Of a DNA stretch of 64,000 nucleotides, positions 3,347-51,662 are shown one piece after another. Position 1 is the stretch's first letter. Each line of letters opens with the position of its first letter. The position numbers and the translations under genes are program-made. The notes below the pieces were generated by a model. It was not told the origin of the DNA. It was given only the letters and a program-made list of their open reading frames with translations, and searched no databases. The stretch is from an uncultured Actinomycetes bacterium (GTDB taxonomy: Bacteria > Actinomycetota > UBA4738 > HRBIN12), in the NCBI GenBank assembly GCA_963758715.1, contig CAVWWK010000014.1, forward strand, positions 68,381 through 132,380, written 5' to 3'.

Positions 3347-3471
3347 CCAGGGTTGCCGGTTGTTTCGACGTCGAATCGAACGAGCATTGTCTTGCGTCCC
3401 TCCGACCGCGGGGCATACGTTCCCGTGGATCGACGACGATGCCCGCGTCGCGCGACTGAGGAGGGTGCTCC

Positions 3472-8588: not shown

Positions 8589-9806
8589 CCGTGACACCCG
8601 CACGCCCGCGCGACCGGCCGAGACCGGAACGAACGTCTTGACGGTCCGGGATCTGACGAAGCACTTCCCGATCCGCGAAGGGGTCCTGCAGAGGATCAAT
8701 GGCCACGTCAGGGCGGTCGATGGGGTGAGCTTCGACATCCGCCGGGGTGAGACCGTGGGACTGGTCGGTGAGAGCGGATGCGGGAAGTCGACCCTGGGCC
8801 GATGCATCGCCGGTCTGCTCGCCCCGACCGAGGGCGGGATCTATTTCGGACTGGACGACGAGTCGGTGCGTCGTCTCGATGCCCTGCGCGCCATCACCCG
8901 CGGAGCCGAACCCCTAGGGATCGGAGGACGCTGCAGACGCTGACCGAACGACACCGCATCGATCTGATGCCCAAGTACGCGTGGCGGAACTACCGGCGGA
9001 ACTGCCAGGTCGTGTTCCAGGATGCGTTCTCGTCCCTGAACCCGCGGCAACTCGTCATCGATATCGTCGGCCGGCCATTGAAGGTGCACGGGGAGGCGTC
9101 GGGGGCCGAGCTCACCAGGAGGGTCGTCGCACTCCTCGAGAGCGTGGGATTGGGACGGCAGCACCTCTATCGCTACCCCCATCAGTTCTCCGGAGGGCAG
9201 CGTCAGCGGATGTCCATCGCGCGGGCGCTGGCGCTGGATCCCGAGTTCATCGTGCTCGACGAACCCACCAGCGCCTTCGATGTCTCGGTGCAAGCGCAGA
9301 TCCTGAACCTGCTGCACGAGCTACAGCAGGAACGCGGCCTGACCTACCTGTTCATCAGCCACGACCTCAACGTCGTGCAGCACATGAGCGATCGGATCAT
9401 CGTCATGTATCTGGGAGTCGTCGCCGAGGTCGGTGACGCGAAGGACGTCTTCCGCGACCCTCGGCATCCGTATACAGAGGCGCTGCTCGCGGCGAACCCG
9501 GGCATGCACGGGGACGATACCGCGATCCGGCTGCCCGGTTCGCTTCCCGACCCGGCCGCACCGCCGCCCGGGTGCCGATTCCACACCCGATGCCCCGTGG
9601 TGACCGCGCGGTGCGGATGGGATGTCAGCGACGTGTCGCGCATCGTCGAGGAACGCGGCCAGCTTCCGGATGGTTTGAAAGACATCCAGCGCAGGACGCC
9701 GTTCGAGGGCACCCTTTCTTTCGAGAGTCCCGAGCAAGCGACGGCCTTGGTGGCCGAACTGACGGGCGAGGAGATGCCGCACCCCTCCGTGATGCGGCCC
9801 TCCTGA
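8585..9806 (+). pseudogene. Peptide ABC transporter ATP-binding protein (DppF/OppF-like), about two frame breaks
   Basis: The ATG at 8585 overlaps the upstream stop (ATGA). Motifs seen: Walker A GESGCGKS, QVVFQD, signature FSGGQRQR, Walker B FIVLDEPTSAFD and a C-terminal CRFHTRCP. Breaks lie near 8640 and 8930. Confidence 0.8.
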
Positions 9807-26406: not shown

Positions 26407-29400
26407 TTAGTCCGGGCATTGCTCCAGGCGAGGAACTGCCGGCACTCCTCGTCGGTGAGCTCTCGCGTGACTTCCCGACGGGCGATCTCGAGCAGGTCGT
26501 CGATCTCGAGCGCCCAGATCCGGACGCTGTCCCCAACCAAGCCGATCCCGACCGAGGCCAGCCTCCGGCCGTCGGGGCTGAATTCGAGGCCCGTGGCACC
26601 CGCGATCTCCTCACGAAGGACCACCTGCTCGCCCGTGCCCGTATCGAGCAGAGCGATCGACGAGTTCTGGAACGAGGTCGCGATGCGCGAACCGTCGGGA
26701 CTGATCGCGACGTCCCAGATTGCTGCCGAGCGGCCGGCCGGACTCCTCCGCCACGCGAGCCCCGGTTCGGACGTCCCAGGTCTCGACGACCTCCCCGTCG
26801 AACGTCACGAGACGAGCGCCCGTCTCGATCGAACGCGATCTCCCCGAGCCCCGTCTCGATCTCCTGGACGACATGACGTCGCCGCCAGTCCCAGATCCGG
26901 ACCAGCGCGTCCTCCGCGGTGCCGCCATGCACTCGGACCGACGTCGCGAGGTAGCGGCCGTCCGGGCTGAACAGGGCGGCTCGGACGTGGTGGGCGTCCT
27001 CCTCGTCGCAGGACCACGACCTCCCGCCCAGATCGATCCAGGATCCTCACCGAACTCGGTCCGGCGCCCATGCGCGACGAGAGTCCCATCCGGACTCCAG
27101 ACGGCGCGGAGGTTGCCATGCGGCCTCGTGGTGAAGAGCGCGTCGCCGGTCGCCGTGTCGTACGCGGTGACCCTGGCGCGCCTGGCGACCAAGTCGTCGA
27201 TGACGATCGCCTCGCTGTCGATGACGATCGAGCTGCCATCCGGGCTTACCGCAAGCTCCGGGTGCGCCGCTCGCGGATAGGCCGTTGTCCCCGGGACACC
27301 GATCGTTCGGAGCTTTCGGAGAGGATCGAGTCCCCAGATCGCCACCGAGCCCCATCCGTTGGTTATGGCCACCCGATCCCCGTCCGCGACGAACCCGACG
27401 TGTCCGAAGGCGAGCGGAGCCGGAAGGTTCCCCAACTCGGCGTCACCGGTCGGACCTATATCCCAGATCTTCACGGCGGAGCGGTCGGCGGCGCCGGCGA
27501 GCACCCGGTTCCCGTCCGGCGAGAACGCCACGCCGCCGATCCCGCTGGACATCTCCGGCGACGACAGCGACATGAGCTCCCTGCCCTCGTTCTCGCCGAC
27601 CTTCCATACCTGCGCGGCCCCCTCGTCACCTCCGGAGACGATGCGCGTTCCATCGGGGCTCCACGCAACCGACCAGACGAACGACCTCTGGCCCCACAGC
27701 TCGTGCTGGACGCGCCCCGACCTCGCGTCCCAGGTCTCGATCACGCCGCTGGATCCGACCGTGGCGATCGATCGGTCGTCGGGGCTCCAGGCCAGTGCGT
27801 CGACGAGTTCGGGGCCATGGAGCTTGACCATGCGTCGCCGGTCGAAACGTCCATGATCACGACGCCGCCGTCGTCGTCAGCGACCGCGATCATCCGTCCG
27901 TCGGCGCTGAGGGCCGCGTCCTCGACGGGGTAGTCACCGGACGCGTTGAGGTTTCGGAACGTCCGGGTCGCGGCCCCATGAGCGAGGTCCACGAACCGGA
28001 TGGTACGGAAGTTCCACACGGCGGCGGCAAGCGCCCCACCGCCGCTGAAGGAGGGGTCCTCGACGGACCCCGGGCCCGTCTCGCTCGTGATGAGCCTTCC
28101 CGTCTCGGGATCCCATACCTTCAACATCCCGTCGTCGCCGGTGGTGGCCAGCATGGTGCCGTCCCGGCTGAACGCCGCGTCAGTGATGTCGCCTGTCGTG
28201 TCCGCGGAAAGGAGGGAGGGCGCTCTCACCTGAATCGGCGTCACGGATGTCGATGATCCCCGCTCCTCCTGGGACCCTGGGTGACGAAGACACCCTTCGC
28301 GCTCCAGGCCACCTCCCCTCCGACGCCCGGGGTCGTCGCCACAACCCGTGAGGTCGTGACGGCTTGGTGCAGCGCCTCCTCCGCCTCGGGAAGAACCGAC
28401 CCGTCCACCGATCTCGTGTGGTCGACCGCCTCCATCGCCAGCAGGATGCTTCGCTCGGGATCGACCTGGAGGTTCGCGACCGCAGCCGCGGCCAGTCCCC
28501 TCGCGGTGGCGACCCTCGCCTCTCGCGCCGCCTCGTCGCTCTCATTGGTCGCGATGATGGTGAGTGTGCCGGCGACCAGCGCTGCGACTGCGAAGACGGC
28601 CACGAGTGCGCGCAGCCTCGTCCGCGCGCGGCGCTCGACGTGCCGCTCGTGCTCGCCCCGCTCCCGCTCCACCGCGCGTTCCCGCTCGCGTTCGTCGATG
28701 CTCGCCTTGAGGTAGGACCGCCCAGGCCTGCCGATCGCGAGGTCGGTGGTCGTCGCCCAGGCTTCGGCTTGCTCGAGTCGCGCACCCCGCAACAGGAAGC
28801 TCGGGTCCTGCTGGGAGCCCCGCCATTCCGCGCTGGCTCGCGCGAGGCGCCGTTCCTGCCTGAGGTCGTCGCGCGCGTCGTCGATCCAGCCGGCCATCCG
28901 CTTCCATGCGCCGAGGAGCGCCTCGTGGGCGATCTCGACCGTCGGCTCGCGGGTGGAAGGCTCGCGATCGAAGGTCAACAGGCGGTGGTGTCCGAAGGTG
29001 TCAAGCACCTCGTCGACCTCGGCCGGATCCACGTCGAGGTCGACCAGCTCCCTCCTCGCCACCCGCCGTCGGGTGTCATGCCGGCCTTCGCCCAGCGTGA
29101 CGAGCCGCAGGAACACCTGCTTGATCGCTCGTCGTCCATCGGCGTCGGTCGCCTCGTACGTGCGCTCCGCCCTCGCCGACAGCGCTCCCGCGACGCCCCC
29201 GATCTTCCGGTAGGCGTCGAGGGTCAGTCGTTCCTCGTCACGCCGTTCGAACAGCTCTGTGAGCGCGTACTGCAGCAGGGGGAGCCCGCCCGGCTGATGG
29301 GCAACGTCGGCGATCATCTCCGCCACCAAGCCGGGCTCCGCCCTGACGCCTTCCTGCTCGGCGGGCCCTCGGATCGCCTGCTCGAGCTCGTCGGGGGTCA

Positions 29401-31450
29401 TCGGGGGAACCGCCTCGGTCCGGGCGGCGAGCAGCTCTCCGAACCGTGGGTAGACGAGCGGCCGGTCGTAGAAGTCGGCGCGCAGGGTCACGACCACGCG
29501 GAGCCTGCTCCGGGGGTCGGCGGTCGCCACACGGAGGGACTCGAGGAACAGCTCCCGCTCGTGTTCGTTCGTGGTGAGCGTGAAGAGCTCTTCGAACTGG
29601 TCGATCACGAGCACGACGCCTTTGTCGTCGGATGCGACGAGATCCACCGCCTCGAGCAGCCCCCGCGTCCCACCTTCGATCACATCCTGCAGCCGGGGTG
29701 TCGGACGCACGGCGATCCGGACCAGGGCGGCCACCAGCTCGTCGATCGGGTGCGGGCCGGGGAACATCTCGGCGATTGCTGGTTCCTCCGTCCCCTCGAC
29801 CGCTCCTCTGCGGATCGCCGGTATCAACCCTGCGCGCACCACCGACGACTTGCCGCTCCCGCTCGGACCAACGACGGCGAGGAACCTGCCTGGCGATCCC
29901 GCCTCGTTCAGCTTGGCCACGAGGCGTTCGGTCAGCTCGCCCCGGCCGAAGAAGTCGCGCGACTCGGCCGACGTGAAGGGTCGGAGGCCCTTGTACGGGT
30001 TGCGCACGTCCCGGGAAGTGGGGGAAGGGCCCGCTTCCGGTTCTAGGGACGCACGCATTTCCTCTGCGAATACCGCGGCCCCCGGGACCTCCAAGCCGCT
30101 CTCGGCTCGATCGACGAGATCGGCCATTCGGTGCGGCATCTCGTGCCCCAGCAGGTCCACCGCGAGTCGTGAGAGCGCGCGCACGTCCTCCTGAGGCTCG
30201 GGCGAGGTGCCGACCGCGATACGGAAGTCGGCGAGGTATGCGTTCCCCTCGGCGTCGAGCAACACGTTGGACGGCCCGAGGTTCCCGTGGGCGACACCGT
30301 GGCGGTGGGCGAAGGCGAGCGCCGATGCGATCTGTTCGACGATGCGAACAGCCCGGTCTCGTGGGAGCGACCCTTCGCGTTCCTCGACGGCACGCACGCT
30401 GCCTCCCCGCAGGTAGCGAGAGACGATGTAGGCGCGACCGGGTTCGCGCCAGTAGTCGTGGATCGGCACGATGTGGGGGTGCTCGAGTGCCGCGACGGCT
30501 TGAGCCTCTGGTTCGAATCGACCGACGAACGACGGGTCGCTCGCGATGTGCTCCGAGATCACCTTGACGGCTACGTCACGACCGACGTGGGGCTGGATCG
30601 CGCGGAACACCGTCCCCGTCGGCCCGTCGGCGATCCTCTCGAGGAGCCGGTAACCGCGGAGCGGCTCGCCTCGCAGTTCCAGTCCGGGGTCCTGCTTGAG
30701 GATCCGCTCGTGGAGCCGTGTCAGCTCGGGCGAGGGGTCGATGCCGAGCTCGTCGGCCAGGATCTCTCGCGCGCGCTGGAAGGCGCCCAATGCTTCGCCC
30801 TGCCGTCCTTCGCGGTAGAGCGCCGTCATCAACAGGCCCCACAGGCTCTCCCTCAACGGGGTGTGGGCCAGCAGGGCCTCCAGCTCCCCGATCGCCCCGG
30901 CCTGAGCGCCGCCCGCGAGGAGCCCTTCGATGCGGTCTTCCTGCGCCTCGAGCCGAAGGTCGTCGAGACGGGCCGCTTCGGCCAACAGCGATCTCTGCTC
31001 ACCGACGTCGGCGAGGTCGGCGAGCGCGGGACCGCGCCACAGCGCCAACGCGTCCTCGAGCGTCGCGACCGCGACCGTGGGGGCGACGGGGAGGGCCTGC
31101 TTCGCGTCGCGGACGAGCGAGTCGAACCGTGCGGCGTCCAGGTCGATCGGATCGACGACCAACATGTAGCCCGGGGACCGGCCCTGGAGCCGATCGTCAC
31201 CCAGCGTCGACCGCAGCTTGGACACGTAGGTCTGCAGCGTGTGCCGCGCCTTCTCGGGTGGCTCTTCGCCCCAGATCTCACCGATCAGCGTGTCGGCCGG
31301 CACGAGCTGGTTGGCGCGAATCAAGAGGTTCGCGAGCACGGCTCGCTGCTTCGGCCCACCGAGGGGGATCGGGCCGTCCCCCGCGTCGACCTCGAGAGGT
31401 CCAAGGACGCGGAACTGCACCCGCCGACCGTACACAGACGTCGTATCCAT
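26407..31450 (-). pseudogene. Giant paralog 1: SARP wHTH + BTAD + kinase-like + P-loop STAND-type NTPase + TM helix + WD40 propeller. N-terminal 3.2 kb intact, WD40 part has about seven frame breaks
   Basis: ORF 28241..31492 (1083 aa) carries these motifs:
- FRVLGPLEV...GGPKQRAVLANLL (OmpR/SARP wHTH);
- ALALWRGPALADL...ALYREGRQGEAL (BTAD);
- VAVKV...HGNLGPSNVLL...DFRIA (kinase-like);
- NPYKGLRPF...FFGR...VVGPSGSGKSS...VLVIDQFEELF (NTPase);
- RLRALVAVFAVAALVAGTLTIIAT (hydrophobic helix).
WD40 blades continue in ORFs 27741..28244, 26611..27831, 26261..26932 and 26349..26624. The true tail ...CRQFL.LEQCPD* ends at TAA 26407-26409. The start is 31450 (MDTTSVYGRRVQF) or 31492. Confidence 0.85.
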
Positions 31451-31602
31451 GAGCAACGCAGGACGCTGCCACGCCGTTGTCAAGAACCGCACAAATGCCG
31501 GGTTTGAGCATTCGTTGCCTCAGCTCTGCCTCACCTTCGATCGAGACGGTCGACCCTTCCCAGGTCCTCATGAGGGAGGGCGATCCGATGGAAGGAGGCG
31601 GT

Positions 31603-33341: not shown

Positions 33342-34004
33342 TCAGGTCTCGAGCCTGTATCCCATGCCTCGGATGTTCGTGATGCGATCGGCGCCGAGCT
33401 TCTTGCGGAGATGTCCGACGTACACGTCGACCACGTTGGACCGTGGGTCGTAGTCGTAGCCCCACACCAGGCTCAGCAGCTGCTCCCGGCTCAGCACCTG
33501 CCCTGGGTTGCTGAAGAACGCGTCGGCGAGCGCGAACTCGCGAGCGGTGAGCTCCACCGTCGTCCCGTCGACGATCGCGTCCCGGCGCCGCAGGTCCAGG
33601 GTCACGTCGCCGACGGTCAGCATGGGCGATGCCGGCGCGGCATCGGTTCGGAGCCGCGTGCGGACGCGTGCGAGCAGCTCCTCGAACGGGAAGGGCTTGC
33701 GCACGTAGTCGTCGGCACCGCCCTCCAGCCCCGCCACCGCGTCACGCGCACTGTCCCGCGCCGTCAGGATGATGACCGGAAGCGACGTGTTCTGCTCGCG
33801 GATCTCGCGCAGGACCTCGAAGCCGTCCTTCCCGGGCAGCCCGATGTCCAGGATCAGCAGGTCGAATCCGCCGGAAAGGGCCTTGAGCAGCGCGGAGGGG
33901 CCGTCGGCCGCGACCGTCGTCGAGAAGCCGGCCGCCATGAGCCCCTTCTCCAGGAACGAGGCGATGCGCTCCTCGTCCTCGGCGATCAGGATCCGCCCGC
34001 TCAT
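33342..34004 (-). CDS. OmpR-family response regulator
   Basis: Reads MSGRILIAEDEERI...DLLILDIGLPGKDGFEVL...GADDYVRKPF, followed by a wHTH ...LTAREFALADAFFSNPGQVLSREQLL...VDVYVGHLRKKL...IRGMGYRL. The start overlaps the kinase stop (ATGA at 34001-34004). Confidence 0.9.
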   Translation of the reverse strand: MSGRILIAEDEERIASFLEKGLMAAGFSTTVAADGPSALLKALSGGFDLLILDIGLPGKDGFEVLREIREQNTSLPVIILTARDSARDAVAGLEGGADDYVRKPFPFEELLARVRTRLRTDAAPASPMLTVGDVTLDLRRRDAIVDGTTVELTAREFALADAFFSNPGQVLSREQLLSLVWGYDYDPRSNVVDVYVGHLRKKLGADRITNIRGMGYRLET

Positions 34005-35470
34005 GCGCCCGCCCTCGTGCGTTCGGCGGGCTTCCGGCGATCGGAGGGTCGGAGGCCCGGCGTCCTGACCGGAAGGTGCAGCGTGAACTTCGCGCCATGG
34101 CCAGGGCGACTGGTGACGTCCGCCCGCCCGCCGTGCGCCTCGACGATCGCCCGCACGATCGCCAGCCCCAGTCCCGCACCGTCGGATCGTCGGTGGCCGT
34201 CGCCGCGCGCGAACCGGTCGAAGATGGTCTCCTGTGCCGCCAGCGGGATGCCCGGCCCGTCGTCGCGGACCCACAGGCGTATGCCGCCCGCCGTCACCGA
34301 CGACCCCATCCAGATCGCCACGCCCTCCGGTGTGTGCTGGGACGCGTTCACCGCAAGCTGCATCATCGCCTGGGTGATCCGCTGACGGTCCATGAGGAAC
34401 AAGCCGGCGCCGACGGCTTCGAGCTGCCAGCCCCGGTTGGCGATCCCTAGCGCCTTCGCGTGCAGGTCCCTGGTGAGCTCGTCCAGATCCACGGCCTCCA
34501 TCTCGACGAACCCCGGCTGGTCGGCCTTCGACAGCAACAACAGGTCGTTCACGATGCGATCGATCCGCCCCAGCTCATCCATGACGATGTTCATCGTGTC
34601 GGCTCGCTGCGCGGGGTCGTCGCCCATCAGCTCCAGGTGGCCTCGCACGATCGTGACGGGCGTTCGCAGCTCGTGGCCGGCGTCATCGGCGAAGCGGCGC
34701 TGCGCGGTGAAGGCCTCCTCCAGTCGATCGAGCATCTGGTTGAAGGTCCGGGCCAACACAGCGACCTCGTCGTTCCCTCGGGCGTCGATCCGGCGATGGA
34801 GGTCGGTATCCGTGATCGACTGCGCGGTGTCGGTGAGCCGCCGCAACGGGGAGACGACCCGGCCGGCGGCGAACCACGAGACGATCGACGCCAGGATGGT
34901 CACACCGATGCCCACCAGGGCCATCGTCCGCGACACCTCATCGATCTCCTCGCGCTCGAACGCCGACGAGTTCGAGATGATCAGGGTTCCCCGGACGCCG
35001 TCGTTCAGCACGATCGGCTCCACAACGTATCGGAGATCGCCCGCCGCCGTCGCGAGCACCCCTTGCTGCGGCCCGTCGAGGTTCGACCAGCGCTGCAGGT
35101 CCGTCGTGAGGTCCTCCAGAGGGAAGCCGGCGTCGTGCGCTCGCTCGCTGGCGTAGGGGACTCCGTCGATGAGGGCGAGCACCTCCTCACCCTCGGACGG
35201 AAGGTTCTGCGACAGGTAGGTATCGAAGATCGCCGGGAGGTCGGATCCGAACGGTTCGCCCGTGTCGGGATTGTTCGACCCCAAGACCGTTCGGAACTCT
35301 CCGACCTCCTTCTCGAGCGACCGTTCGATCTCGTCGCTCAGCTGGGTCAGGAGGATCTGTCGAACCGCCAGGACCGAGGCAACCGTGGCCGCCGTCAACA
35401 CCAGCACGAAGATGACCACCAGCTTGCCCCGCAGGCCCAGCCGAGTCGTCGTCTCCGATCGGATCTCCAT
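34001..35470 (-). CDS. Sensor histidine kinase (two TM helices, HAMP, HisKA, HATPase_c)
   Basis: Intact 489-aa ORF. It has an H-box FADDAGHELRTPVTIV, an N-box QLAVNASQHTP, and G-boxes VRDDGPGIP and GAGLGLAIV. Confidence 0.9.
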   Translation of the reverse strand: MEIRSETTTRLGLRGKLVVIFVLVLTAATVASVLAVRQILLTQLSDEIERSLEKEVGEFRTVLGSNNPDTGEPFGSDLPAIFDTYLSQNLPSEGEEVLALIDGVPYASERAHDAGFPLEDLTTDLQRWSNLDGPQQGVLATAAGDLRYVVEPIVLNDGVRGTLIISNSSAFEREEIDEVSRTMALVGIGVTILASIVSWFAAGRVVSPLRRLTDTAQSITDTDLHRRIDARGNDEVAVLARTFNQMLDRLEEAFTAQRRFADDAGHELRTPVTIVRGHLELMGDDPAQRADTMNIVMDELGRIDRIVNDLLLLSKADQPGFVEMEAVDLDELTRDLHAKALGIANRGWQLEAVGAGLFLMDRQRITQAMMQLAVNASQHTPEGVAIWMGSSVTAGGIRLWVRDDGPGIPLAAQETIFDRFARGDGHRRSDGAGLGLAIVRAIVEAHGGRADVTSRPGHGAKFTLHLPVRTPGLRPSDRRKPAERTRAGA

Positions 35471-39871: not shown

Positions 39872-40488
39872 GTCTCGACGACGCCGTCCATGTGTGGCGT
39901 ACCTGGGCGCTCTTCGACGACCCGGGCTCACGGACGCCGACGCTGAGGCCGATCACCGGCGACAGGCGGATCTGGACGCCGCGGAGACCCGCTCGTGCGA
40001 GGTGCACCATCCATCGGCGCCATCGCGCGCCGGATCCCGGCTGCCGATGCGGGCTCTACGCGGTGAAGGACCCGAACCTGTTGCGGTACGCGCGCGATCC
40101 CGCCGTCCTGGGAACCGTGGCGCTGTGGGGACGGATCATGGAGCACGAGCTGGGGTTCCGTGGTGAGTTCGCGTACCCGCAGCGGCTCGGTCTGATCTGT
40201 TCCCTGTGCTTCTGGCAGTGGGGGGCGGGAACACGCGAGGTCGACCATGTCGCTAGGGTCGATCGCCACCAGCTCGTCCCACTGTGCGACACGCACCTGA
40301 CCCTTGCGATCGCCACGGGATACGACGTGACGGAGCTGCGTGACGCCGCGGTCGTTCGAACGTCGCTGCTGGCCACCTACGCGGTCGACCCGCTCGATCG
40401 GGGCCTCGCCGCCCGGCTCACGTCCCCACTGGACACCGTTCCACGTGCAGGAACTGCCGGCACTCTTCGTCCGTCAGCGAACGCGTGA
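39868..40488 (+). CDS. Cys/His-rich hypothetical protein
   Basis: The in-frame ATG at 39868 lies within ORF 39655..40488. Translation reads ...ARCTIHRRHRAPDPGCRCGLYAVKD...GTVALWGRIMEHELGFRGEFAYPQRLGLICSLCFWQW...LVPLCDTHL. The last 70 or so nt overlap the convergent 3' end of giant paralog 2, so the true stop may lie earlier. Confidence 0.55.
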   Translation: MSLDDAVHVWRTWALFDDPGSRTPTLRPITGDRRIWTPRRPARARCTIHRRHRAPDPGCRCGLYAVKDPNLLRYARDPAVLGTVALWGRIMEHELGFRGEFAYPQRLGLICSLCFWQWGAGTREVDHVARVDRHQLVPLCDTHLTLAIATGYDVTELRDAAVVRTSLLATYAVDPLDRGLAARLTSPLDTVPRAGTAGTLRPSANA

Positions 40489-43400
40489 CCTCCCGCCGGG
40501 CGATCTCGAGCAGGTCGTCGATGTCGAGCGCCCAGACCTTGATCTCTCCAGCGGTGATGGCTGCCAGCTTCGTGCCGTCGCGGCTGAAGTCCACGCGCCA
40601 CGCTCCGAGTTCGGAACCGGGCAGGGTGAACAGCAGATCGCCGGACTCGGCATCGAACATCCGGACGGCCGGGATTCCGAAGGAGCCCGTCGCGACGCGG
40701 GTTCCGTCGGGGCTGAAGGCCACATCGATGACCTCCCCTGAGCTCACCGCGAGGACCGCTTCGCGCTCTCCGGTCTCGACGTTCCACACTTCCGGCTGCC
40801 CGCCACCCGGCGGCGGGACGGTGGCGATCCGAGCTCCGCTCGAGTCGAACGCGAACCGACCCGTGGAGATCGGGAGCTCACGTACGACGCGTGCCCGCTC
40901 CCAATCCCAGAGCCGCATGCTGCGGCCGGACGACCCGGTCCCCGATGTGGCCACCAAGGCCCCGTCGGGGCTGAACCGCGCGAACCCGATCTCGAAAGCC
41001 TCGTCTTCCAGGGTCTGGATCTCGTTCCCGGTGCGATCCACTATGACGGCGGAGCCGTCGAGCATCGACATCAGCAGCAGCGTGCCATCTGGGCTCCAGT
41101 CGACATCGCTTACCCCGGGCGGACCGTCGACCGTGAACAGGGGTCGTCGTGTGGCCCTGCCCCAGGCCTCCACGCGCCCGCCGTTCCACTCGCTAACGGC
41201 TACCGATCTGCCGTCGGCACTCACCGACACCTCCCCGTCGTACCAGTCTTGACCGAAGCGAGGGGAGCCGATCGTGTCGAGGGGGCGCCGCGCCTCGGTG
41301 TCCCAGATCGTGACTGTGCCCTCTCCGTTGGACGCCGCGAGGTGGCCGCCCGGCAGGAACTCGGCGTCGCCCAGCAGGTAGTTCGCGTTCAGGTTCGCCC
41401 ATTCGGCGTCGCCGTCGAAGCCGATGTCCCAGATCTTCACCGCGGCCCCATCCTGCGCTCCGAACATGATCTGGGATCGGTCTGGAGAGAAGGCGATGCC
41501 CGCGATCCCACCCAGCGTCTCCGCGGACGAGAGCGACAGCACCTCTCTCGCGCCGTCAACCTCCCACACCTTGACTTCCCCGTCCTCGGCAGCCGAGGCC
41601 AGGAACGACGAATCCGAGCTCCATGCGACCCTCGTGACGAAGCCGTTGTGACCGATGAGCCCGAATGCGTGCTCCCCCGAAACCGCGTCGTAGACCTCGA
41701 TCGATGGGTGGGTCGTCGTGCCTGCGATGAACCGACCATTCGGGCTCCATGCCAGGGACCCGAAGGAAGGCTGCTTCGCGAACACGTGCTCTTCGGTCTC
41801 GAGGTCGATCACGATGAACCCGAAGGAGTCTCGGGTCTGGGAGTCGGTCGTCACGGCGATCCGCTGCCCGTCGGGACTGAGCGCGGTGGCACGAGGCACC
41901 CCAGGGACTCGAAGCGTTTGGACCTCATCCCGGGACAGGTCGACGACGCGTACGACCCGTTCACGGGGCCAGGAGGCTGCGAACGAACCCTCGGCGCCGG
42001 CCGAGAGCCCGGTCGCCGAACCCTGGCCGACGTACTCGACGAGGAGGTCGCCGGTCGACGGATCCCACACCTTCAGGATCCCGTCGGCACCCGTTGTGGC
42101 GAGGGTGGCACCGTCGGCGCTGAATGCCACGCCCGTCACGCCCCCGTCGTGGTCTCCGACCGTATGCACGAGCGCTCCCGTCCCGGCGTTCCTGATCGCA
42201 ACCAGCCCCGAGCCGCGCGGTCCCTCGGCTGCGAACACGCCGTTCGGACCCCACGCCACGGAGCCGCCGACGTCGGGCACGGTCAACGCCGCCCGCGACG
42301 CGCTGAGGGCCCGATGCATTGCATCCTCGGCCTCGGGGAGGACGGAGCCGTCGAGCGATCTCGAGAGGTCGACGGCCTCCATGGCCAGCAGGATGCTTCG
42401 CTCGGGGTCGGTGTCCACGTTGACGACGGCCGCGGCCGCGAGCTCCCGCGCCGTCGCGATCGTGGCCTCTCGGCCCGCCCTCTCGCCTTGGTTCATCGCG
42501 ATCGCGGTCAGCGTTCCCGCGACGAGGGCGGCGGCGCCGAGCACCGCGACGAGTGACCGGAGCCGTCGGATCGACCGGCGTTCCAGGACCCGTTCGCGTT
42601 CTTCGGCCTCGCGCTCGGCGGCGTTCTCTTCATCGCGCAAGGCGATGCTCGCGTCCAGGTAGGCACGGTCGTTCTCCACCAGGGAGAGCGTCGTCGTCTC
42701 GGTCCACGCCTGGGCTCTCTCGAGTCGCGCTCCCCGCAGCAGGAAGCTCGGATCTCGCCCGCTCGTCGTCCACTCGGCGGCGGCCGCGGAAAGCTGTCGT
42801 TGTGCCCGGATGTCGTCCCGGGCTTCTTCGATCCAGACGCGCAGCCTGGCCCACGATCCCAGCAGCGCCTCGTGCGCGATCTCGATCGTGGGCTCGCGCG
42901 TCTCCGGGTCGCGGTCGAACGAGAGCAGGCGATGCCGGCCGAAGGCGTCGATCACGCTCTCGAACGCCACCGGGTCGGCGACCGGCGTGAGCTCCGAGCG
43001 CCGCACCCGTCGCCGCGTGTCCTGCGCCCCCTCACCGAGCGTGACCATCCTGAGCAGGAGCTGGCGGCAGGCGACGCGCGCGCCCTCGTCCATCGCGGCG
43101 AACAACCGGTCGGCGCGTTGCGCGACGGCGCCGGACACCCCGCCGATCCCCCGGTACCCGTCGAGCGTGAGCGCGCCGTCCTCACGTCGCTCGGCCAGCT
43201 CGGTGAGCGCGAACTGCAGCAACGGAAGCGCGCCCGGCTGGTCGACGACGTCGGCGATCATCACGGCCAGCAGCGACGGCTCGACGTGGAGCTCGGCCCG
43301 TTCCGCGGGCTCCACGATCGCGCGTTCGAGCTCGTCGGGTGACATCGGTGCGATCGCTTCGGTGCGTTCGGCGAGCAGGTCTCCGAATCCCCGGATCGAA

Positions 43401-45440
43401 AGTGGCTCGTCGAAGAAGTCCGCTCGCAGGGTCGCGACGATCCTGATCCGGCTGCCGGGTTCGAGCGCGGCCGCCCGGAGTGTGGAGAGCACGTGTGCGC
43501 GCTCGCGTTCGTCCTCGACCAGCGTGAACACTTCCTCGAGCTGGTCGACCACGATCAGCAGCTCGTCGTCGGTGTGAGGAAGCACGCGGTGCGCTGCTCG
43601 CACCAGGCCGAGCTCGTCGTGCTCGAGGTCGTCCAGGAGGGACGGCGGGGGTTCGATCGCCACGCTCAGCAGCGCCGATTCGAGCTCGCGGAGCGGATGG
43701 GAGCCCGGCAGGAGCTCGATCACGTACCAGCGGTCGGATCCGGGCACCGCCCCGGCGCGCAGCGCCGGCACCAGACCGGCTCGCACGACCGACGACTTCC
43801 CCGAGCCCGACGGCCCCACGACGGCCAGGAACCGGGCGGTGGCGGACTCGTCCCGCAACCTGTCGACAAGTCGAGCGACGAGCGCCTCGCGGCCGAAGAA
43901 GTCCGCTTCGTCGGCCTCCAGGAAGGCCCGCAGTCCCTTGTACGGGTTGCGGATCGTCCCGGGCGGCTCTCCGATGGCGGTGGCGCCGTCGACCGCTGCT
44001 CGGAAGGCGGCCGCCAGCTCGAGGGCGCCCGTGAAACGGTCGTCGAGCTCCTCGGCCGTCGCTCGAGCGATCGTGGTCTGGAGCGCTGGCGTCGGCTGCG
44101 CCCCGCCGAGCATCTGCGACGCAACGATCCCCAAGGCGTCAACGTCTGACTGCGGCGTGGCCGGTTCCTCGCGGAGCTGCGCCGCCACGACGAAGTCGGT
44201 CAGGTATGCGTTGCCCTCCTCGTCGAACAGCACGTTCCTCGGCTTCACGTCTCCATGCACGACACCCTGGCGGTGCGCGGCGTCCAGCGCGGCAGCAACC
44301 TGATCGAGGACGTCCGCGGCGCGGTCGGGCTCGAGCGGCCCCGCGCTCGAGCGATCGCTCCAAGCTCCCGCCGACGAGGAAGCGCGTCACCAGGTAGGCG
44401 GCGTCGGCCTCGCGCCAGTAGTCGTAGAGCGGCACGATGTGCGGGTGCTCCAATCGAGCCACGATCTGCGCCTCGCGTTCGAACCGGCGCACGAAGCCCG
44501 GGTCGTTCGCCAGCTTGGGATTCACGGCCTTGATCGCCACCTCGCGGCCGATCTGGGGCTGGATCGCACGATGGACGACACCGTTGGCGCCCCGACCCAC
44601 CTGCTCGAGCAACCGATAGCCGCGGAGAGGCTCGCCCCTGAGTGCGAGCTCCGGATCCTGGCGAAGGATCCGCTCGTGCAGGATCTGTAGATCGCGCGAG
44701 GGATCGATCCCGAGCTCGTCGGCCAGGGTCGTGCGGGCACGCTCGAACGCGGCGAGCGCGTCTGCCTGCCTGTCCTGTCGGTAGAGCGCGAGCATGAGCT
44801 CTCCCCACAGGCGCTCCCGCAGGGGGTGAGCGCGGGTCAAGCCCTCGAGCTCGGCGACGACCCGGTTGTGCTGGCCCAGGTCGAGCTGCGCCGCGATCTT
44901 CTCCTCGACCGTCTCGAGCCGGAGCTCCTCGAGCCGGGCGATCTCTCCCGAGAGCGACGGTTCGGCCGCGAGGTCGGCGAGGGCCGGGCCCCGCCACAGC
45001 TCGAGCGCCTCGGTGAGCGTGTCCGCGACATCACGCGGCTCGGTCTCCGAGACCCTCGCCTCGCCGAGGAGATCCTCGAACAGCTGAGCGTCCACCTCGT
45101 CCGGTTCCGCCCGGAGCCGGTAGCCGGGAGGACGCCCCTCGATCGTGTCCGGCCCGAGCACCGAGCGCAACCGCGAGATGTAGACCTGAAGGGTCGCCTT
45201 CGGGACCTCGGGAAGCTCTTCCCCCCAGACGGCGTCGATCAGGTGCTCGGCGGGAACGACCCTGTTCGCCGCCAGCACGAGGTGCGCGAGCACGATCCGC
45301 TGTTTGGGGCCGCCGAGTGGGCGCGGGCCGTCCTGCCCGGAGACCTCGAGAGGCCCGAGGACACCGAAGCGCACGGGCCGACGGTACATCCCGGATGCAC
45401 TATTCGGAACCCCCTGCCGATCCGTGGTGGTCGAGGACAC
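40418..45440 (-). pseudogene. Giant paralog 2 (SARP wHTH + BTAD + kinase-like + STAND-type NTPase + TM helix + WD40). Best preserved copy, single frame break at a C4 run (44339-44342)
   Basis: ORF 44139..45440 covers the wHTH, BTAD and kinase N-lobe (GRGANGVVHRA...VAIKAV). ORF 40418..44260 (1280 aa, uninterrupted) carries:
- HGDVKPRNVLF...DFVVA;
- NPYKGLRAF...FFGRE...VVGPSGSGKSS...LLIVVDQLEEVF;
- RLRSLVAVLGAAALVAGTLTAIAM;
- about 650 aa of WD40-like blades;
- the tail WALDIDDLLEIARREVTRSLTDEECRQFLHVERCPVGT*. Confidence 0.9.
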
Positions 45441-45500
45441 CGGGCCAGCCTGGGTCCTACCCCTTTCAGACCGCTTTCATCGACCGGCCCGGGCCGCGAC

Positions 45501-46198: not shown

Positions 46199-49100
46199 TC
46201 AGGCGGGGCAGCGATCGAGGTGCAGGTACTGGTGGCACTCTTCGTCGGTGAGCGATCTGGTGACGTCTGTCGTGCGATCTCGAGCAGGTCGTCGATGTCG
46301 AGTGCCCAGATCCGGACGCACCCGTGACGCCCACCCGACGCGAGCATCGTGCCGTCCGTGCTGAATACCAGCCAGTTGGAGACCTCGACGTGGCCTCGAA
46401 GCACGAGCTGCTGCTCGCCCGAGGTTGCATCGTAGAGTCGGACGGAGCATCGTTCAGGGTCGCCGCCAGCCGAGTGCCGTCCGGACTGAAGTCGACGTTG
46501 GTGATCTTCTCCGGAGGGCAACGAGCTTCTCGAGGCGTCCTCGGTCTCCCATACCTCCCAGATCTTCGTCGTACGGCAGGGCACGGTGGCGAGCCGCGCA
46601 CCATCAGGAGCGAAGTCGGAATCAGCGAGACCAACCAGCGATCGTCCTCGACGACCTCGCCTCGCGCCAGGTCCCAGATCGTCGTGCGAGGCTCGACGTT
46701 TCCGATTCTCCGTTCCAGGGCGTGCACTCATCGCGACGGAACGCCCGCGGGGCTGAACCTGGCGGCTACGAGCCATGATACCCGTCGTCCTCGCGCAGGA
46801 CTTGGATCTCCCGACCGTTCCGATCAACGATCTTCGCCCAACCATGACTGCTCGCGAGGAACGAGCGGCCCTCGGGGCTCCAGTCGACTAGCTGGATGAG
46901 CTGGTCGTCGTGAGACGCGCAGGTTCGGTTTCCCGACGCGATATCCCAGACGTCGGACGCCTCATCCCCGAAGGTAACGATCGACTCGCCCGCCGGGCTC
47001 ACCTCGAGTTGAGGATGTCCGAGGCCGAAGAGATCCACGAACGGCGGATCGAGCCTCATCGGCGGTCCGCCCTGTTTCCCGGTCCCAGATCGCAAGCGCT
47101 CGGTGAGCCATCCTCCGATGCCGTCACATGGGGTCCGTCCGGCATGAAGCCAGCGGGATACCAATACGCGCCTGGGAAGTTCGCGACCTCGGCGCCACCC
47201 GAGATGCTCACGTCCCAGAGTCCATGACAGCCGTGAAGTCGGCATCCGAGCGGGTCATCACCGGGTCCCATCGGGCGAGAAGGCAACGCCGGTGATCTGG
47301 CCCGGCACGCGAGGAGAAGGACCGACACTTCCGTGGCGTCCCGCTCCACGATAGGCCACACCTTCGCGGTAGATTCCCTGCGGTTACCAAGCACGTCGAG
47401 TGCGGGATGCCCCCGCTCACCGGGTCGCATGCGTGGACTGGGCATCGGGAGTCCTGACCCACATGGCGACGGCGCCGTGTACCCTCGCAGCATTCGAACT
47501 CGAAGAGGTGTCGTCCGTTCGCGGCCAACACTGCCGAGGTCCCCGAATGTCGGTACGGCGATGTGCCGCCCATCTGGGACTCCATGCGACCGAGGTGAGC
47601 CCCTGGTCCGCGCATAGAGTCGGCGGCCATCACCGGTCTCGACATCGATCAGATGGAACACCTCGCCCTCGTAGCCCCCAGACGGCGACGACCCGTTCCC
47701 GTCGGGACTGAGCGCGACGTCGTTCGTGTACGGCGCAGCTGGGAACGTCCGGACTCGGCCCGTGTCAGCTCGACACTCGCACCGATCTCGAACGGTGCCT
47801 GAACTCGCCGCATGCCGCAGCGACCCGCGACCCATCCGCAGCTGAAGGAAGGACCCGCGCGCCCCACCCCGGACCCTGATGTCCTGATCAGATCGCCGCT
47901 TGACAGATCCCAGACCTTGAGCCGCCCGTCCTTGCCCGTCGTCGCGAGCATCGAGCCGTCGGGGCTGAACTCGGCGCCGGTGACCTTCCCGTCGTGGCCG
48001 GAAGCGAACGCATGATCTCGCCCGTCTCCTGGTCCCTGAGGTCGATGATCCCGACCGGGCGAGGGCCTTCCGACGCGAAGTCCCCATCCATGACGACGAG
48101 GCCCGCTGGGCCCCAGTCGATGGCACCCCGGTTCGGAGCCGCACGAGAGCTCATCTCGCCCGAGCCCGGGATCGACCTCACGATCCGCGACGCCGTCACA
48201 GCTCGGTGGAGCGCCTGTTCGGCCTCTCGCAGCACGGAGCCGTCGACCGAGCGCGTCCGGTCCACGGCCTCCTTCGCGAGCAGGATGCTGCAGCTCTGGA
48301 TCGACTCGAGGTTCGCGACGCGCCGCCGCAGCCAGTTCCCGAGCGAAGGCGACCCTCGCTTGGCTCCGCAGCTGCTCGCGCTGGCGGTCGCGATGACGGT
48401 GAGCACCGACGCCACCAGGGCGGCGACTGCGAACACCGCGACGAGCGCGCGCAGCCGGGAACGAGAGCGACGCTCCGTCCGTTCCTCGCGGCTCCGGCGG
48501 GCTTCGCTCCTCCGCCGCTCCTGGTCGCGCACGTCGACGCTCGCCTTCACGTATTCGCGCTCGGGTCGTCCGATCGCGAGGTCGGTCGATGCGGCCCACG
48601 ACTCGACCTGCTCCAGCCGCGCGCCTCGAAGCAGGAAGCTCGGGTCGCGGCCGGAACCTCGCCACTCCCCGGCCGCCGCGCCAGGCGGTGGTCCTGGCGG
48701 AGGTCCTCCCGGGCGTCGTCGATCCACGTTCGGAGTCTGGCCCACGCCGTGAGCAGTGCCTCGTGCGCGATCTCGACGGTCGGTTCCCGGGTCGACGGCT
48801 CCCGGTCGAACGTCAGCAAGCGGTGACGTCCGTACGTGTCCATCACCGTCTCGACGAGCTCGGGATCGACGTCGAGCGCATCGAGCTCGCTCCGCGTGAC
48901 GCGACGTCGCGTGTCCTGGCGGCCCTCCCCGATCGTGACGAGCCGCAGGAACACCTGGCGGATCGCCCGCTGCCCATCGGGCTCGGTCGGTCGCGAAGAT
49001 CCGGTCGGCCCGCGCGGACAAGGCGCCCCCGATGCCTCCGATCTCCTCGTAGGCCGCAGGGTGAGCCGGTCGCCGTCCCGTCGCTCGAACAGCTCGGTGA

Positions 49101-51308: not shown

Positions 51309-51662
51309 CCGATCACCGGACCGAGTATCGAACTTCGGCACAGAGAGCGCCAGTGAGTCGCTCCATCCCGGGAAGGCATACGCGAGTCGTCACCCGGCCA
51401 TCCTGATCGTCGGGTCTTGCAACATCCTTGACGTCACGGTTCAGGGGATGTCTGGGGCCACCGGTGAGGGTTCTATTCGTAACGATCAGAGGGGATCGGA
51501 TGGCCACGCTCGAGAACCGCCGGACGCGTCGCGGAGCTGAGGTGTCATGCAGACGCGTTGTCCCGAGGGTCGCTGCGATGCCCTGCTCGCGTCGGCCGCG
51601 TGCATCGGATCGACGACGCCGGGGGCATCTGGCCAGATCCCACCCTTTAGGAGGCTGACCGA

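What the first reader, a model, noticed from the sequence alone, without database searches (positions are those of the whole stretch)
28547..28609. Single hydrophobic helix after an Arg-rich stretch in every paralog implies a membrane-spanning topology
Between the NTPase/helical region and the WD40 array, each copy has about 21 uncharged hydrophobic residues directly preceded by a basic coiled segment:
- ERRARTRLR-ALVAVFAVAALVAGTLTIIAT (paralog 1, 28547-28609);
- RRSIRRLRS-LVAVLGAAALVAGTLTAIAM (paralog 2, 42494-42556);
- RRSRSRLR-ALVAVFAVAALVASVLTVIAT (paralog 3, 48386-48448).
By the positive-inside rule, the DNA-binding, kinase-like and NTPase parts would be cytoplasmic and the WD40 propeller would face outward. 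That is a ToxR/CadC-like one-component transmembrane regulator, but with a STAND switch. It would be unusual for both SARP and STAND proteins.
Basis: inference. Interest (0 to 1): 0.6.

Follow-up and report, generated by a model that had tools for sequence, protein, structure and literature searches.

The report
Membrane-spanning helix in giant SARP-STAND-WD40 regulators
The 21-residue greasy stretch in all three giant regulator genes is almost certainly a true membrane-spanning helix that keeps the DNA-binding, kinase-like and ATP-switch parts inside the cell and puts the WD40 propellers outside, a layout that is the rule in its large protein family, is already listed in a published supplement, and has never been tested.

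Summary
The genes lie on the minus strand, and all three quoted peptides are there. Each hydrophobic segment sits about 60 residues after an nSTAND1 (PF20703) NTPase domain and about 65 residues before a 14-blade WD40 array.

Four lines of evidence support a real single-pass helix with the N-terminus inside and the WD40 outside:
- It is by far the most hydrophobic window of each protein.
- Position and hydrophobicity are conserved, but sequence is not. It is present in 120/120 close homologs, 136/140 diverse cluster representatives and 77/77 genome loci.
- Lys+Arg are more numerous on the N-terminal side in 97/103 representatives.
- After the helix, cysteines occur only in pairs. Counts are even in 83/83 full-length homologs, across 21 distinct patterns. 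Before the helix, parity is mixed. This is a disulfide signature.

AlphaFold2 folds both flanks confidently and leaves only this segment unpacked. Full-length Apaf-1 is the best structural match.

The helix is the norm for this nSTAND1 clade, not an oddity. The supplement of Kaur et al. 2021 lists this exact architecture without discussing it.

Caveats: no dedicated topology predictor was available, no Dsb-type machinery was found in most relatives, and all three copies are frame-shifted in this assembly.

The parts
28547..28609 (-). Paralog 1: predicted transmembrane helix ALVAVFAVAALVAGTLTIIAT (residues 962-982 of the 1083-aa frame)
   Evidence: KD19 mean 2.58, Hessa sum -1.97. It is the hydrophobic maximum of the protein.
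28610..28636 (-). Paralog 1: Arg-rich cytoplasmic flank ERRARTRLR, at the end of a long charged helix
   Evidence: E-R-R-S-x-R-R-L-R is nearly invariant in the family. In the paralog-2 model the equivalent helix is H430-465.
28349..28546 (-). Paralog 1: conserved juxtamembrane helical module directly after the helix (NESDEAAREARVATARGLAAAAVANLQVDPERSILLAMEAVD...ALHQAV)
   Evidence: In the paralog-2 model the equivalent part forms three helices with pLDDT about 90. At 68% identity it is one of the two most conserved segments of the protein, with the C-terminal tail.
28802..29998 (-). Paralog 1: nSTAND1 NTPase domain (PF20703)
   Evidence: E = 5e-121, residues 499-897, profile positions 1-378 of 379.
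30197..30652 (-). Paralog 1: truncated, degenerate protein-kinase-like domain (HGNLGPSN in place of HRDxKxxN, DFR in place of DFG)
   Evidence: (Pkinase profile positions 1-151 of 263) and the sequence.
30698..31357 (-). Paralog 1: SARP module (OmpR-type wHTH Trans_reg_C plus BTAD)
   Evidence: Trans_reg_C at residues 46-101, BTAD at 118-265 (E = 7e-42).
26407..28348 (-). Paralog 1: WD40 array, broken by at least four frame changes in this assembly
   Evidence: tblastn with the intact ortholog P0013 runs through frames -1, -2, -3, -2 and -3. WD40 hits in 26611-27831.
42494..42556 (-). Paralog 2: predicted transmembrane helix SLVAVLGAAALVAGTLTAIAM (residues 569-589 of the 1280-aa frame)
   Evidence: KD19 mean 2.25, Hessa sum -0.44. 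The AlphaFold2 low-confidence stretch 462-480 covers the Arg-rich flank and the first half of this segment, which is model residues 470-490.
42749..43945 (-). Paralog 2: nSTAND1 NTPase domain
   Evidence: E = 1.3e-118, residues 106-504.
42296..42493 (-). Paralog 2: juxtamembrane three-helix module on the predicted outer side
   Evidence: (helices 477-514, 520-534 and 543-555 of the model, pLDDT 79-94).
40529..42292 (-). Paralog 2: tandem WD40 beta-propellers (about 14 blades), the most variable part of the protein
   Evidence: strands at model residues 558-1145; 38-44% identity, against 60% for the NTPase.
40421..40528 (-). Paralog 2: conserved C-terminal tail with the invariant Cys-x8-Cys pair (EECRQFLHVERCP)
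   Evidence: (the pair is present in 83 of 83 homologs).
43976..45308 (-). Paralog 2: SARP module plus shortened kinase-like domain, with one frame change near 44350
48386..48448 (-). Paralog 3: the same hydrophobic segment, ALVAVFAVAALVASVLTVIAT. The gene (about 46199-51341) is heavily frame-shifted, including directly after the helix.
45460..45481 (-). Direct repeat with 11-nt spacing (GATGAAAGCGGTCTGAAAGGGG) 20-40 nt upstream of the paralog 2 start. It is a candidate SARP box.
31513..31535 (-). Direct repeat with 11-nt spacing (GGTGAGGCAGAGCTGAGGCAACG) upstream of paralog 1. It is a candidate SARP box.

Best explanation
Each hydrophobic segment is a genuine single-pass transmembrane helix with the N-terminus inside and the C-terminus outside.

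Inside the cell are the SARP DNA-binding module (wHTH plus BTAD), a degenerate kinase-like domain, the nSTAND1 NTPase, and a long charged helix that ends in RRSxRRLR at the membrane. Outside are a conserved three-helix juxtamembrane module, two seven-bladed WD40 propellers, and a short tail that probably carries a disulfide. That much is shown, or strongly indicated, by sequence statistics.

The mechanism is inferred. The variable propellers bind an external ligand. In Apaf-1 the WD40 region folds back onto the NTPase, but here the membrane makes that contact impossible. The signal must therefore pass through the helix, most simply by ligand-driven clustering of ectodomains. Clustering would bring the cytoplasmic NTPase domains together for ATP-dependent oligomerisation. 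The clustered SARP modules would then bind 11-nt-spaced direct repeats, including ones upstream of their own genes, and activate transcription while tethered to the membrane, as ToxR and CadC do.

The helix is a family trait of this nSTAND1 clade and is not special to these three genes.
For: 1. Hydrophobicity. KD19 is 2.58 and 2.25, against at most 1.54 elsewhere in the same proteins. The Hessa-scale sum is negative.

2. Conservation of the property, not the sequence.
- The hydrophobic maximum is the same segment in 120/120 close homologs.
- 136/140 representatives of distinct 50%-identity clusters have a window with KD19 >= 1.9, 42-84 residues after the NTPase domain. Their N-terminal architectures differ.
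- 77/77 genome loci from Actinomycetota and Chloroflexota have it.
- All 7 nSTAND1 copies of this genome have it.
- The windows are only about 20% identical pairwise, and about 90% of their residues are A, L, V, I, G or F.

3. Positive-inside rule. Lys+Arg in the 15 residues before the helix exceed those in the 15 after it in 97/103 representatives. The reverse holds in 1.

4. Cysteine parity.
- After the helix, Cys counts are even (2-10) in 83/83 full-length homologs.
- There are 21 distinct Cys patterns, all even. Cysteines are gained and lost as local pairs: columns 921/956 in 57/57, vicinal CC in 28/29, and the tail pair in 83/83.
- Before the helix, Cys is 4.5-fold rarer and parity is mixed (52/83 even).
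- In the diverse representatives, 85/103 are even after the helix and 62/103 before, 37 of the latter being zero.
- Exported proteins of aerobic Actinobacteria favour even Cys numbers because of disulfides (PMC2823432).

5. AlphaFold2. Mean pLDDT is 88. The only internal stretch below 50 is residues 462-480, the Arg-rich flank plus the first half of the segment. It lies between two confidently folded halves.

6. Structural match. Foldseek's best PDB hit is full-length Apaf-1 (E = 1.9e-39). The parts on either side of the helix are therefore the NOD and the WD40 sensor of a STAND protein.

7. Variability. The propellers are the most variable region (38-44% identity), and the juxtamembrane module and tail the most conserved (68-69%).

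8. Candidate binding sites. Direct repeats with 11-nt spacing are enriched upstream of these genes (z = 8.2 at spacing 11).

9. Precedent. Periplasmic WD40 arrays behind a single helix are predicted for planctomycete Ser/Thr kinases (PMC11032199). A surface WD40 propeller acts as a sensor in Actinomycetota (PMC13622651).
Against: - No dedicated topology predictor (DeepTMHMM, TMHMM, Phobius) was available. The hydrophobicity scores are my own simple implementations.
- The C-terminal flank also carries 2-5 Lys/Arg, so the charge bias is moderate (mean difference 3).
- Known disulfide-forming enzymes were not found in this 66%-complete genome and are rare in relatives: VKOR in 1/21 and Thioredoxin_4 (DsbA-like) in 3/21. 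Only these two families were tested. The catalyst of the inferred disulfides is therefore unknown.
- The homologs are related, so the parity p-values overstate independence. The 21 distinct patterns are the fairer count.
- AlphaFold2 does not model membranes, and no coordinates were available to inspect contacts.
- All three copies in the window are frame-shifted, so they may not be functional here.
- Everything about ligand, signalling direction and DNA binding at the membrane is inference.
Confidence: 0.78

Rival explanations
1. The topology is right, but the function is not a ToxR-like outside-in transcription sensor. The family could be a conflict or defence module, as proposed for nSTAND1 in general. 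It could instead signal from inside to outside, or act as a scaffold, with NTPase-driven oligomerisation arranging propellers on the cell surface. In either case the SARP part would be secondary.
For: - nSTAND1 was defined in the context of counter-invader systems (PMC8195603).
- Sister architectures replace SARP with a kinase alone, or with nothing.
- The Kaur supplement lists caspase versions, and earlier scan notes report TIR and trypsin versions.
- Multiple paralogs per genome, variable propellers and a vapBC pair between two copies resemble fast-evolving conflict loci.
Against: - This subfamily keeps a complete SARP module in well over a thousand homologs.
- It has 11-nt-spaced repeats upstream of its own genes, which fits transcriptional output.
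- No effector of cell death is fused or adjacent in the window.
Confidence: 0.25
2. The segment is a buried or oligomerisation helix of a soluble protein. The WD40 array would stay in the cytoplasm and fold back on the NTPase, as in Apaf-1.
For: - The overall fold resembles Apaf-1, which is cytosolic.
- The segment is Ala-rich, which is common in high-GC soluble helices.
- STAND proteins are classically cytosolic sensors.
Against: - Across the family the segment keeps only its hydrophobicity and length, not its sequence. A packed core helix would keep specific residues.
- It has no charged residue in 20-23 positions and is flanked by the RRSxRRLR motif.
- AlphaFold2 gives it the lowest confidence of the whole chain rather than packing it.
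- The even-Cys rule holds only downstream of it.
Confidence: 0.07
3. The segment anchors the protein in the membrane without crossing it, as a monotopic or re-entrant helix. Both halves would then be cytoplasmic.
For: Hydrophobicity alone cannot distinguish a crossing helix from an embedded one.
Against: - Twenty-one residues is the length of one crossing and is too short for a hairpin.
- There is no central Pro/Gly turn.
- The charge asymmetry across the segment (97/103) and the compartment-like switch in cysteine usage both indicate that the two sides lie in different compartments.
Confidence: 0.04
4. In this genome the three window copies are dead pseudogenes. The helix would then be a relic without function here, whatever the family does.
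For: - Paralog 1 has at least four frame changes in its WD40 part, paralog 2 has one, and paralog 3 has many.
- The neighbourhood contains gene remnants.
Against: - Unrelated opp-type ABC transporter genes in the same window are also split by frame changes.
- The assembly is a 15-contig, 66%-complete MAG.
- GC3 stays at the coding level (0.85) in the long frames.
- Another copy on contig C13 is open over a 1832-codon stop-to-stop frame.
Confidence: 0.3

Closest known systems
nSTAND1 NTPase proteins of the layout 'nSTAND1+TM+BetaPropeller' (Kaur, Iyer, Burroughs and Aravind 2021, eLife, PMC8195603; Pfam PF20703)
   Same: - Same NTPase family (E about 1e-120).
- Same order of parts.
- The supplement lists 'nSTAND1+TM+BetaPropeller' 278 times and even 'wHTH-4stranded+TPRs+Pkinase+nSTAND1+TM+BetaPropeller'.
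   Different: - The layout appears only in supplement rows.
- The main text does not discuss the helix or the location of the propellers.
- The topology has never been tested.
- The window's genes are new, frame-shifted members from an uncultured actinobacterial MAG.
Apaf-1 / Dark (apoptosome STAND ATPases with tandem WD40 propellers)
   Same: - Best structural match of the model (3shf, 3sfz; E = 1.9e-39).
- A NOD plus helical domains, followed by two propellers.
   Different: - Apaf-1 is cytosolic, and its propellers fold back on the NOD.
- Here a membrane helix separates NOD and propellers, so that mode of autoinhibition is impossible.
- The N-terminal output is a DNA-binding SARP module, not a CARD.
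AfsR and other 'large SARPs' of Streptomyces (SARP + NB-ARC-type NOD + TPR)
   Same: - An N-terminal wHTH plus BTAD fused to a STAND-type NTPase and a C-terminal repeat sensor.
- SARPs bind direct repeats spaced by one helical turn (established knowledge). Such repeats occur upstream here.
   Different: - AfsR is soluble, uses an NB-ARC-type NOD and has TPR repeats.
- This family has nSTAND1, an inserted kinase-like domain, a membrane helix and WD40 propellers.
ToxR, CadC and TcpP (membrane-tethered one-component regulators)
   Same: An OmpR-type winged-helix DNA-binding domain in the cytoplasm, a single helix, and a C-terminal sensor on the other side.
   Different: - There is no homology beyond the wHTH.
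- Those proteins are small and have no BTAD, kinase-like or NTPase module.
- Membrane-proximal DNA binding is untested here.
Receptor-type Hanks kinases with external beta-propellers (M. tuberculosis PknD; planctomycete Pkinase-TM-WD40 proteins, PMC11032199)
   Same: - A cytoplasmic kinase fold, one helix and an external propeller.
- Sister proteins in this family, including one in this genome (C4:191771), carry an apparently active kinase.
   Different: - The kinase-like domain of the window's copies has lost catalytic residues.
- A STAND NTPase sits between the kinase and the helix.
- The PknD propeller is of the NHL type.

Membership tests
nSTAND1 (Pfam PF20703) | Match to the family profile above the curated cut-off, over its full length | tested here: met
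   405 and 397 bits against a cut-off of 27.1, covering profile positions 1-378 of 379 in paralogs 1 and 2.
nSTAND1 (Pfam PF20703) | Tripartite STAND layout: N-terminal output module, central NTPase, C-terminal repeat sensor | tested here: met
   SARP plus kinase-like, then nSTAND1, then WD40; Apaf-1 is the top structural match.
nSTAND1+TM+BetaPropeller layout (Kaur et al. 2021 supplement) | A single hydrophobic segment between the NTPase and the propeller | tested here: met
   The listing in the supplement was verified.
SARP (Streptomyces antibiotic regulatory protein) family | An OmpR-type winged-helix domain (Trans_reg_C) followed by a BTAD domain | tested here: met
   Trans_reg_C (35 and 44 bits) and BTAD (144 and 152 bits) in paralogs 1 and 2.
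SARP (Streptomyces antibiotic regulatory protein) family | Binding to direct repeats spaced by one helical turn near the target promoter | tested here: inconclusive
   Repeats with 11-nt spacing are enriched upstream of family members (z = 8.2) and are present upstream of paralogs 1 and 2. Binding itself cannot be tested with these tools.
ToxR/CadC-like membrane-tethered one-component regulators | Cytoplasmic wHTH, one transmembrane helix, extracytoplasmic C-terminal sensor | tested here: met
   Met as a predicted topology only. There is no experimental topology.
ToxR/CadC-like membrane-tethered one-component regulators | Transcription activated while the protein stays in the membrane | not testable with these tools
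   This needs reporter and localisation experiments.
Active Hanks-type Ser/Thr receptor kinases (PknD-like) | Catalytic HRD Asp, the DFG motif and an activation segment | tested here: not met
   - Paralog 1 reads HGNLGPSN and DFR, and its Pkinase match stops at profile position 151 of 263.
- Paralog 2 reads HGD and DFV and has a shortened C-lobe compared with P0004.
- A sister clade keeps HRD and DFG.
Single-pass type II (N-in) membrane proteins | About 20 uncharged hydrophobic residues, with more Lys/Arg on the cytoplasmic flank | tested here: met
   20-23 uncharged residues, and the Lys+Arg difference is positive in 97 of 103 representatives.
Single-pass type II (N-in) membrane proteins | Called as transmembrane by a trained predictor (DeepTMHMM, TMHMM, Phobius) | not tested
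Exported disulfide-bonded domains of Actinobacteria | An even number of cysteines, gained and lost in pairs | tested here: met
   83 of 83 even, with 21 patterns; 85 of 103 even among the diverse representatives. Reference: PMC2823432.
Exported disulfide-bonded domains of Actinobacteria | A disulfide-forming system (DsbA/MdbA-like plus VKOR or DsbB) in the genome | tested here: not met
   VKOR is absent from this genome and present in 1 of 21 relatives. Thioredoxin_4 is absent here and present in 3 of 21. Only these two Pfam families were tried, and the genome is 66% complete.

The most novel reading that the evidence does not exclude
These proteins, and the nSTAND1+TM+propeller clade as a whole, would be transmembrane NLR-like receptors. 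A STAND nucleotide switch in the cytoplasm would read a ligand bound by disulfide-stabilised WD40 propellers outside the cell, through one helix. In the SARP subfamily it would convert that signal directly into transcription at 11-nt-repeat promoters, including its own. One polypeptide would then form a complete outside-to-gene pathway. Its activation logic would have to be clustering, because the fold-back autoinhibition of Apaf-1 is impossible across a membrane.
Probability: 0.45. Interest if true: 0.8.

Novelty: new member of a known kind. Interest (0 to 1): 0.45.

Why it matters
STAND/NLR proteins are textbook intracellular sensors. This clade is very large. The NTPase domain of paralog 2 matches 45,571 clusters at 50% identity, and nearly all of the closest 140 carry the helix. 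The clade would place the sensor outside the cell and the switch inside. If so, bacteria have an NLR-type receptor that works across a membrane and must be activated differently from Apaf-1.

The SARP subfamily adds a direct transcriptional output. That makes it a simple system for asking how a single helix couples an external propeller to an ATP-driven oligomeric switch.

The cysteine-parity test used here is a cheap, alignment-only way to support the topology of such proteins. For this particular window the result is modest: the genes are ordinary, frame-shifted members of an architecture already listed in print.

Tried and rejected
- Plus-strand translation at the given coordinates gave nonsense. 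The genes are on the minus strand.
As a proxy I looked at neighbouring genes. Opp-type ABC transporter genes are also split, which points to assembly indels but does not prove them.
- Disulfide machinery: VKOR and Thioredoxin_4 were sought in this genome and in 20 relatives and were mostly absent. This does not support the disulfide reading and is recorded as a caveat. DsbB, DsbA (PF01323) and other oxidoreductases were not tried.
- A sequence search of the nSTAND1-to-linker region against the PDB found nothing.
- The model coordinates could not be read in the Python box. I could not measure Cys-Cys distances or contacts of the helix.
- Literature: no searchable paper discusses a helix between nSTAND1 and WD40 in its main text. 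No paper contains SARP, BTAD and WD40 together. The architecture turned up only in supplement tables.
- A buried-helix reading and a re-entrant-helix reading were considered and rejected, for the reasons given under the rival explanations.
Full report
**Observation**

Translating the plus strand at the three given intervals gives meaningless peptides.
- 28547-28609: ALVAVFAVAALVAGTLTIIAT after ERRARTRLR.
- 42494-42556: SLVAVLGAAALVAGTLTAIAM after RRSIRRLR.
- 48386-48448: ALVAVFAVAALVASVLTVIAT after RRSRSRLR.

Pfam assigns the surrounding frames to Trans_reg_C + BTAD (the SARP module), a partial Pkinase, nSTAND1 (PF20703; about 400 bits over the full profile) and many WD40 or beta-propeller models. 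In the 1280-residue frame of paralog 2, the NTPase domain ends at residue 504, the hydrophobic segment is 569-589, and the blades start near 657. The stated position between NTPase and WD40 is therefore correct.

**State of the genes**

All three copies carry frame changes in this assembly (tblastn with intact homologs). Paralog 1 has at least four, all in its WD40 part. Paralog 2 has one, near 44350. Paralog 3 has many, including one directly after the helix.

The window belongs to a 2.43-Mb, 15-contig, 66%-complete genome. Unrelated opp-type ABC transporter genes at 7819-9803 are also split between frames. I therefore consider assembly indels at least as likely as real decay. It does not affect the segments themselves.

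**Is it a membrane helix?**

*1. Hydrophobicity.* The 19-residue Kyte-Doolittle mean is 2.58 for paralog 1 and 2.25 for paralog 2. No other window in these proteins exceeds 1.54.

*2. Conservation pattern.*
- Among 120 listed homologs, out of at least 1,482 hits (mostly 1,600-1,900-residue proteins of uncultured Actinomycetota), the hydrophobic maximum is always this segment. It has 20-23 uncharged residues and a KD mean of 2.2-2.9. The second-best window never exceeds 1.97.
- A whole-library search with only the NTPase domain found 45,571 cluster representatives.
- Of the 140 best representatives with a complete domain and at least 150 residues downstream, 136 have such a window 42-84 residues after the domain. 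This holds whether the N-terminus is SARP plus kinase, kinase alone, or nothing.
- The windows are about 20% identical pairwise, and about 90% of their residues are A, L, V, I, G or F.
- The same holds in 77 of 77 scorable loci from genomes of distinct species of Actinomycetota and Chloroflexota, and in all seven nSTAND1 copies of this genome.
- A helix whose length, place and hydrophobicity are kept while its sequence drifts is what a lipid-facing anchor looks like. A packed core helix would not behave this way.

*3. Charge.* Lys+Arg in the 15 residues before the segment exceed those in the 15 after it in 97 of 103 representatives. The reverse holds in one. The positive-inside rule therefore places the N-terminal part in the cytoplasm. 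ATP-using domains and a DNA-binding domain must be there in any case.

*4. Cysteines.* This test is independent of hydrophobicity.
- In 83 full-length homologs the part after the segment always has an even number of cysteines (2, 4, 6, 8 or 10).
- There are 21 different Cys patterns, all even.
- Cysteines appear and disappear as local pairs: columns 921/956 together in 57 of 57, vicinal CC in 28 of 29, several rarer pairs, and the invariant tail pair C-x8-C in 83 of 83.
- Before the segment, Cys is 4.5 times rarer and parity is mixed (52 of 83 even).
- In the diverse representatives, 85 of 103 are even after the segment and 62 of 103 before, 37 of the latter being zero.
- An even-number bias is the accepted mark of disulfide-bonded exported proteins, and aerobic Actinobacteria show it (PMC2823432).

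*5. Structure prediction.* AlphaFold2 on residues 100-1280 of the paralog 2 frame, with 70 homologs, gives a mean pLDDT of 88.
- The only internal stretch below 50 is residues 462-480, the Arg-rich flank plus the first half of the segment.
- A 36-residue cytoplasmic helix (430-465) leads up to it.
- A helix (477-514) continues out of it into a confident three-helix module (to residue 557).
- About 14 blades and two tail helices follow.
- The model does not bury the segment in either half.
- Foldseek's best PDB match is full-length Apaf-1 (E = 1.9e-39). The two halves are thus the NOD and the tandem-propeller sensor of a STAND protein.

**Caveats**
- No trained topology predictor was available.
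- The outer flank also carries some Arg.
- Homologs are not independent samples.
- I could not read model coordinates.
- I did not find the usual disulfide-forming enzymes. VKOR and Thioredoxin_4 are absent from this incomplete genome and occur in only 1 and 3 of 21 relatives. Only those two families were tried.

**How it probably works**

Shown or strongly indicated: a single-pass N-in/C-out protein. SARP, a degenerate kinase fold and the nSTAND1 NTPase are inside. A conserved juxtamembrane module, variable propellers and a Cys-paired tail are outside. The propellers are the most variable region (38-44% identity), and the juxtamembrane module and tail the most conserved (68-69%).

Inferred:
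- The propellers bind an external ligand.
- The membrane prevents the Apaf-1-type fold-back of WD40 on the NOD. Activation is therefore most simply by clustering of ectodomains, which is passed through the helix to ATP-dependent NOD oligomerisation.
- Oligomerisation brings the SARP modules together on DNA.

In support of a transcriptional output, direct repeats spaced by 11 nt (the SARP arrangement) are enriched upstream of family members. The enrichment is z = 8.2 at spacing 11, which stands out from the 3-nt coding periodicity. Such repeats occur 20-40 nt upstream of the paralog 2 start (45460-45481) and upstream of paralog 1 (31513-31535).

Alternative functions with the same topology remain open. 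They are a conflict or defence module, or inside-out scaffolding.

**Comparison with what is known**

The NTPase family was named nSTAND1 by Kaur et al. 2021 (PMC8195603). The main text says nothing about a helix in these proteins. The supplement's architecture tables, however, contain 'nSTAND1+TM' 412 times, 'nSTAND1+TM+BetaPropeller' 278 times, and the exact string 'wHTH-4stranded+TPRs+Pkinase+nSTAND1+TM+BetaPropeller' for a Chloroflexi protein.

Other relevant literature:
- Predicted periplasmic WD40 arrays behind one helix are described for planctomycete Ser/Thr kinases (PMC11032199).
- A surface WD40 propeller acts as a threat sensor in Actinomycetota (PMC13622651).
- No searchable paper combines SARP, BTAD and WD40.

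The architecture is therefore in print, its topology and meaning are not discussed, and nothing has been tested. It does not hold within nSTAND1, where the helix is the rule.

**Verdict**

The ToxR-like mechanism is plausible but inferred. The window's genes are new, frame-shifted members of a catalogued, uncharacterised architecture.

Noticed in passing
window 7819-9803 (+), also 3460-5242 (+): Opp-type ABC transporter genes are split between reading frames. ABC_tran profile positions 2-45 lie in one frame and 52-137 in the next. An SBP_bac_5 gene stops at profile position 256 of 368. This suggests indel errors across the assembly rather than decay confined to the giant genes.
   Followed up: partly
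window 45460-45481 (-) and 31513-31535 (-); loci L016, L020, L025, L034, L037, L046, L060, L083; genome contig C13: Heptamer or octamer direct repeats spaced by 11 nt lie 50-190 nt upstream of the conserved FRVLG codon of many family members. Examples are TCAAGCG-n4-TCAAGCG and, in paralog 2, TGAAAGC-n4-TGAAAGG. They are candidate SARP boxes and would suggest autoregulation.
   Followed up: partly
genome contig C4:191771-191836 (-), outside the window: The same genome encodes a divergent protein with an apparently active kinase (HRD, DFG and APE motifs), nSTAND1, a helix and WD40, but no SARP. It keeps the helix, the juxtamembrane motif and a C-terminal Cys pair. A further SARP copy on contig C13 is open over a 1832-codon stop-to-stop frame.
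   Followed up: partly
homologs P0011, P0012, P0014, P0025, P0027, P0066, P0120 and others (about 1,850-1,930 aa): A sub-branch carries an extra N-terminal domain of about 230 residues. Source annotations call it a class 3 adenylate cyclase. It sits ahead of the SARP module, so these proteins would have a cyclic-nucleotide part as well.
   Followed up: no
post-helix alignment columns 342/343, 586/587 and 800/801 (homologs): Vicinal Cys-Cys pairs recur in propeller loops, for example GPNCCxxP. They are gained as pairs. Vicinal disulfides are rare and are known from periplasmic PQQ-dehydrogenase propellers (from my own knowledge).
   Followed up: no
own genome and 20 relatives: VKOR (1 of 21) and Thioredoxin_4/DsbA-like (3 of 21) are largely absent from this lineage, although the family shows a strong paired-cysteine pattern. 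It is unexplained what oxidises these cysteines.
   Followed up: partly
window 34001-35470 (-): A 489-residue frame between paralogs 1 and 2 reads like a membrane sensor histidine kinase. It has an N-terminal hydrophobic segment, an H-box (HELRTP) and an ATPase G-box. It was judged from the sequence only and was not scanned.
   Followed up: no
loci L018 and L025: Two close homologs (50% identity) sit in MAGs labelled Gemmatimonadota or Gemmatimonas, among otherwise actinobacterial hits. Either the contigs were mis-binned or the gene was transferred.
   Followed up: no
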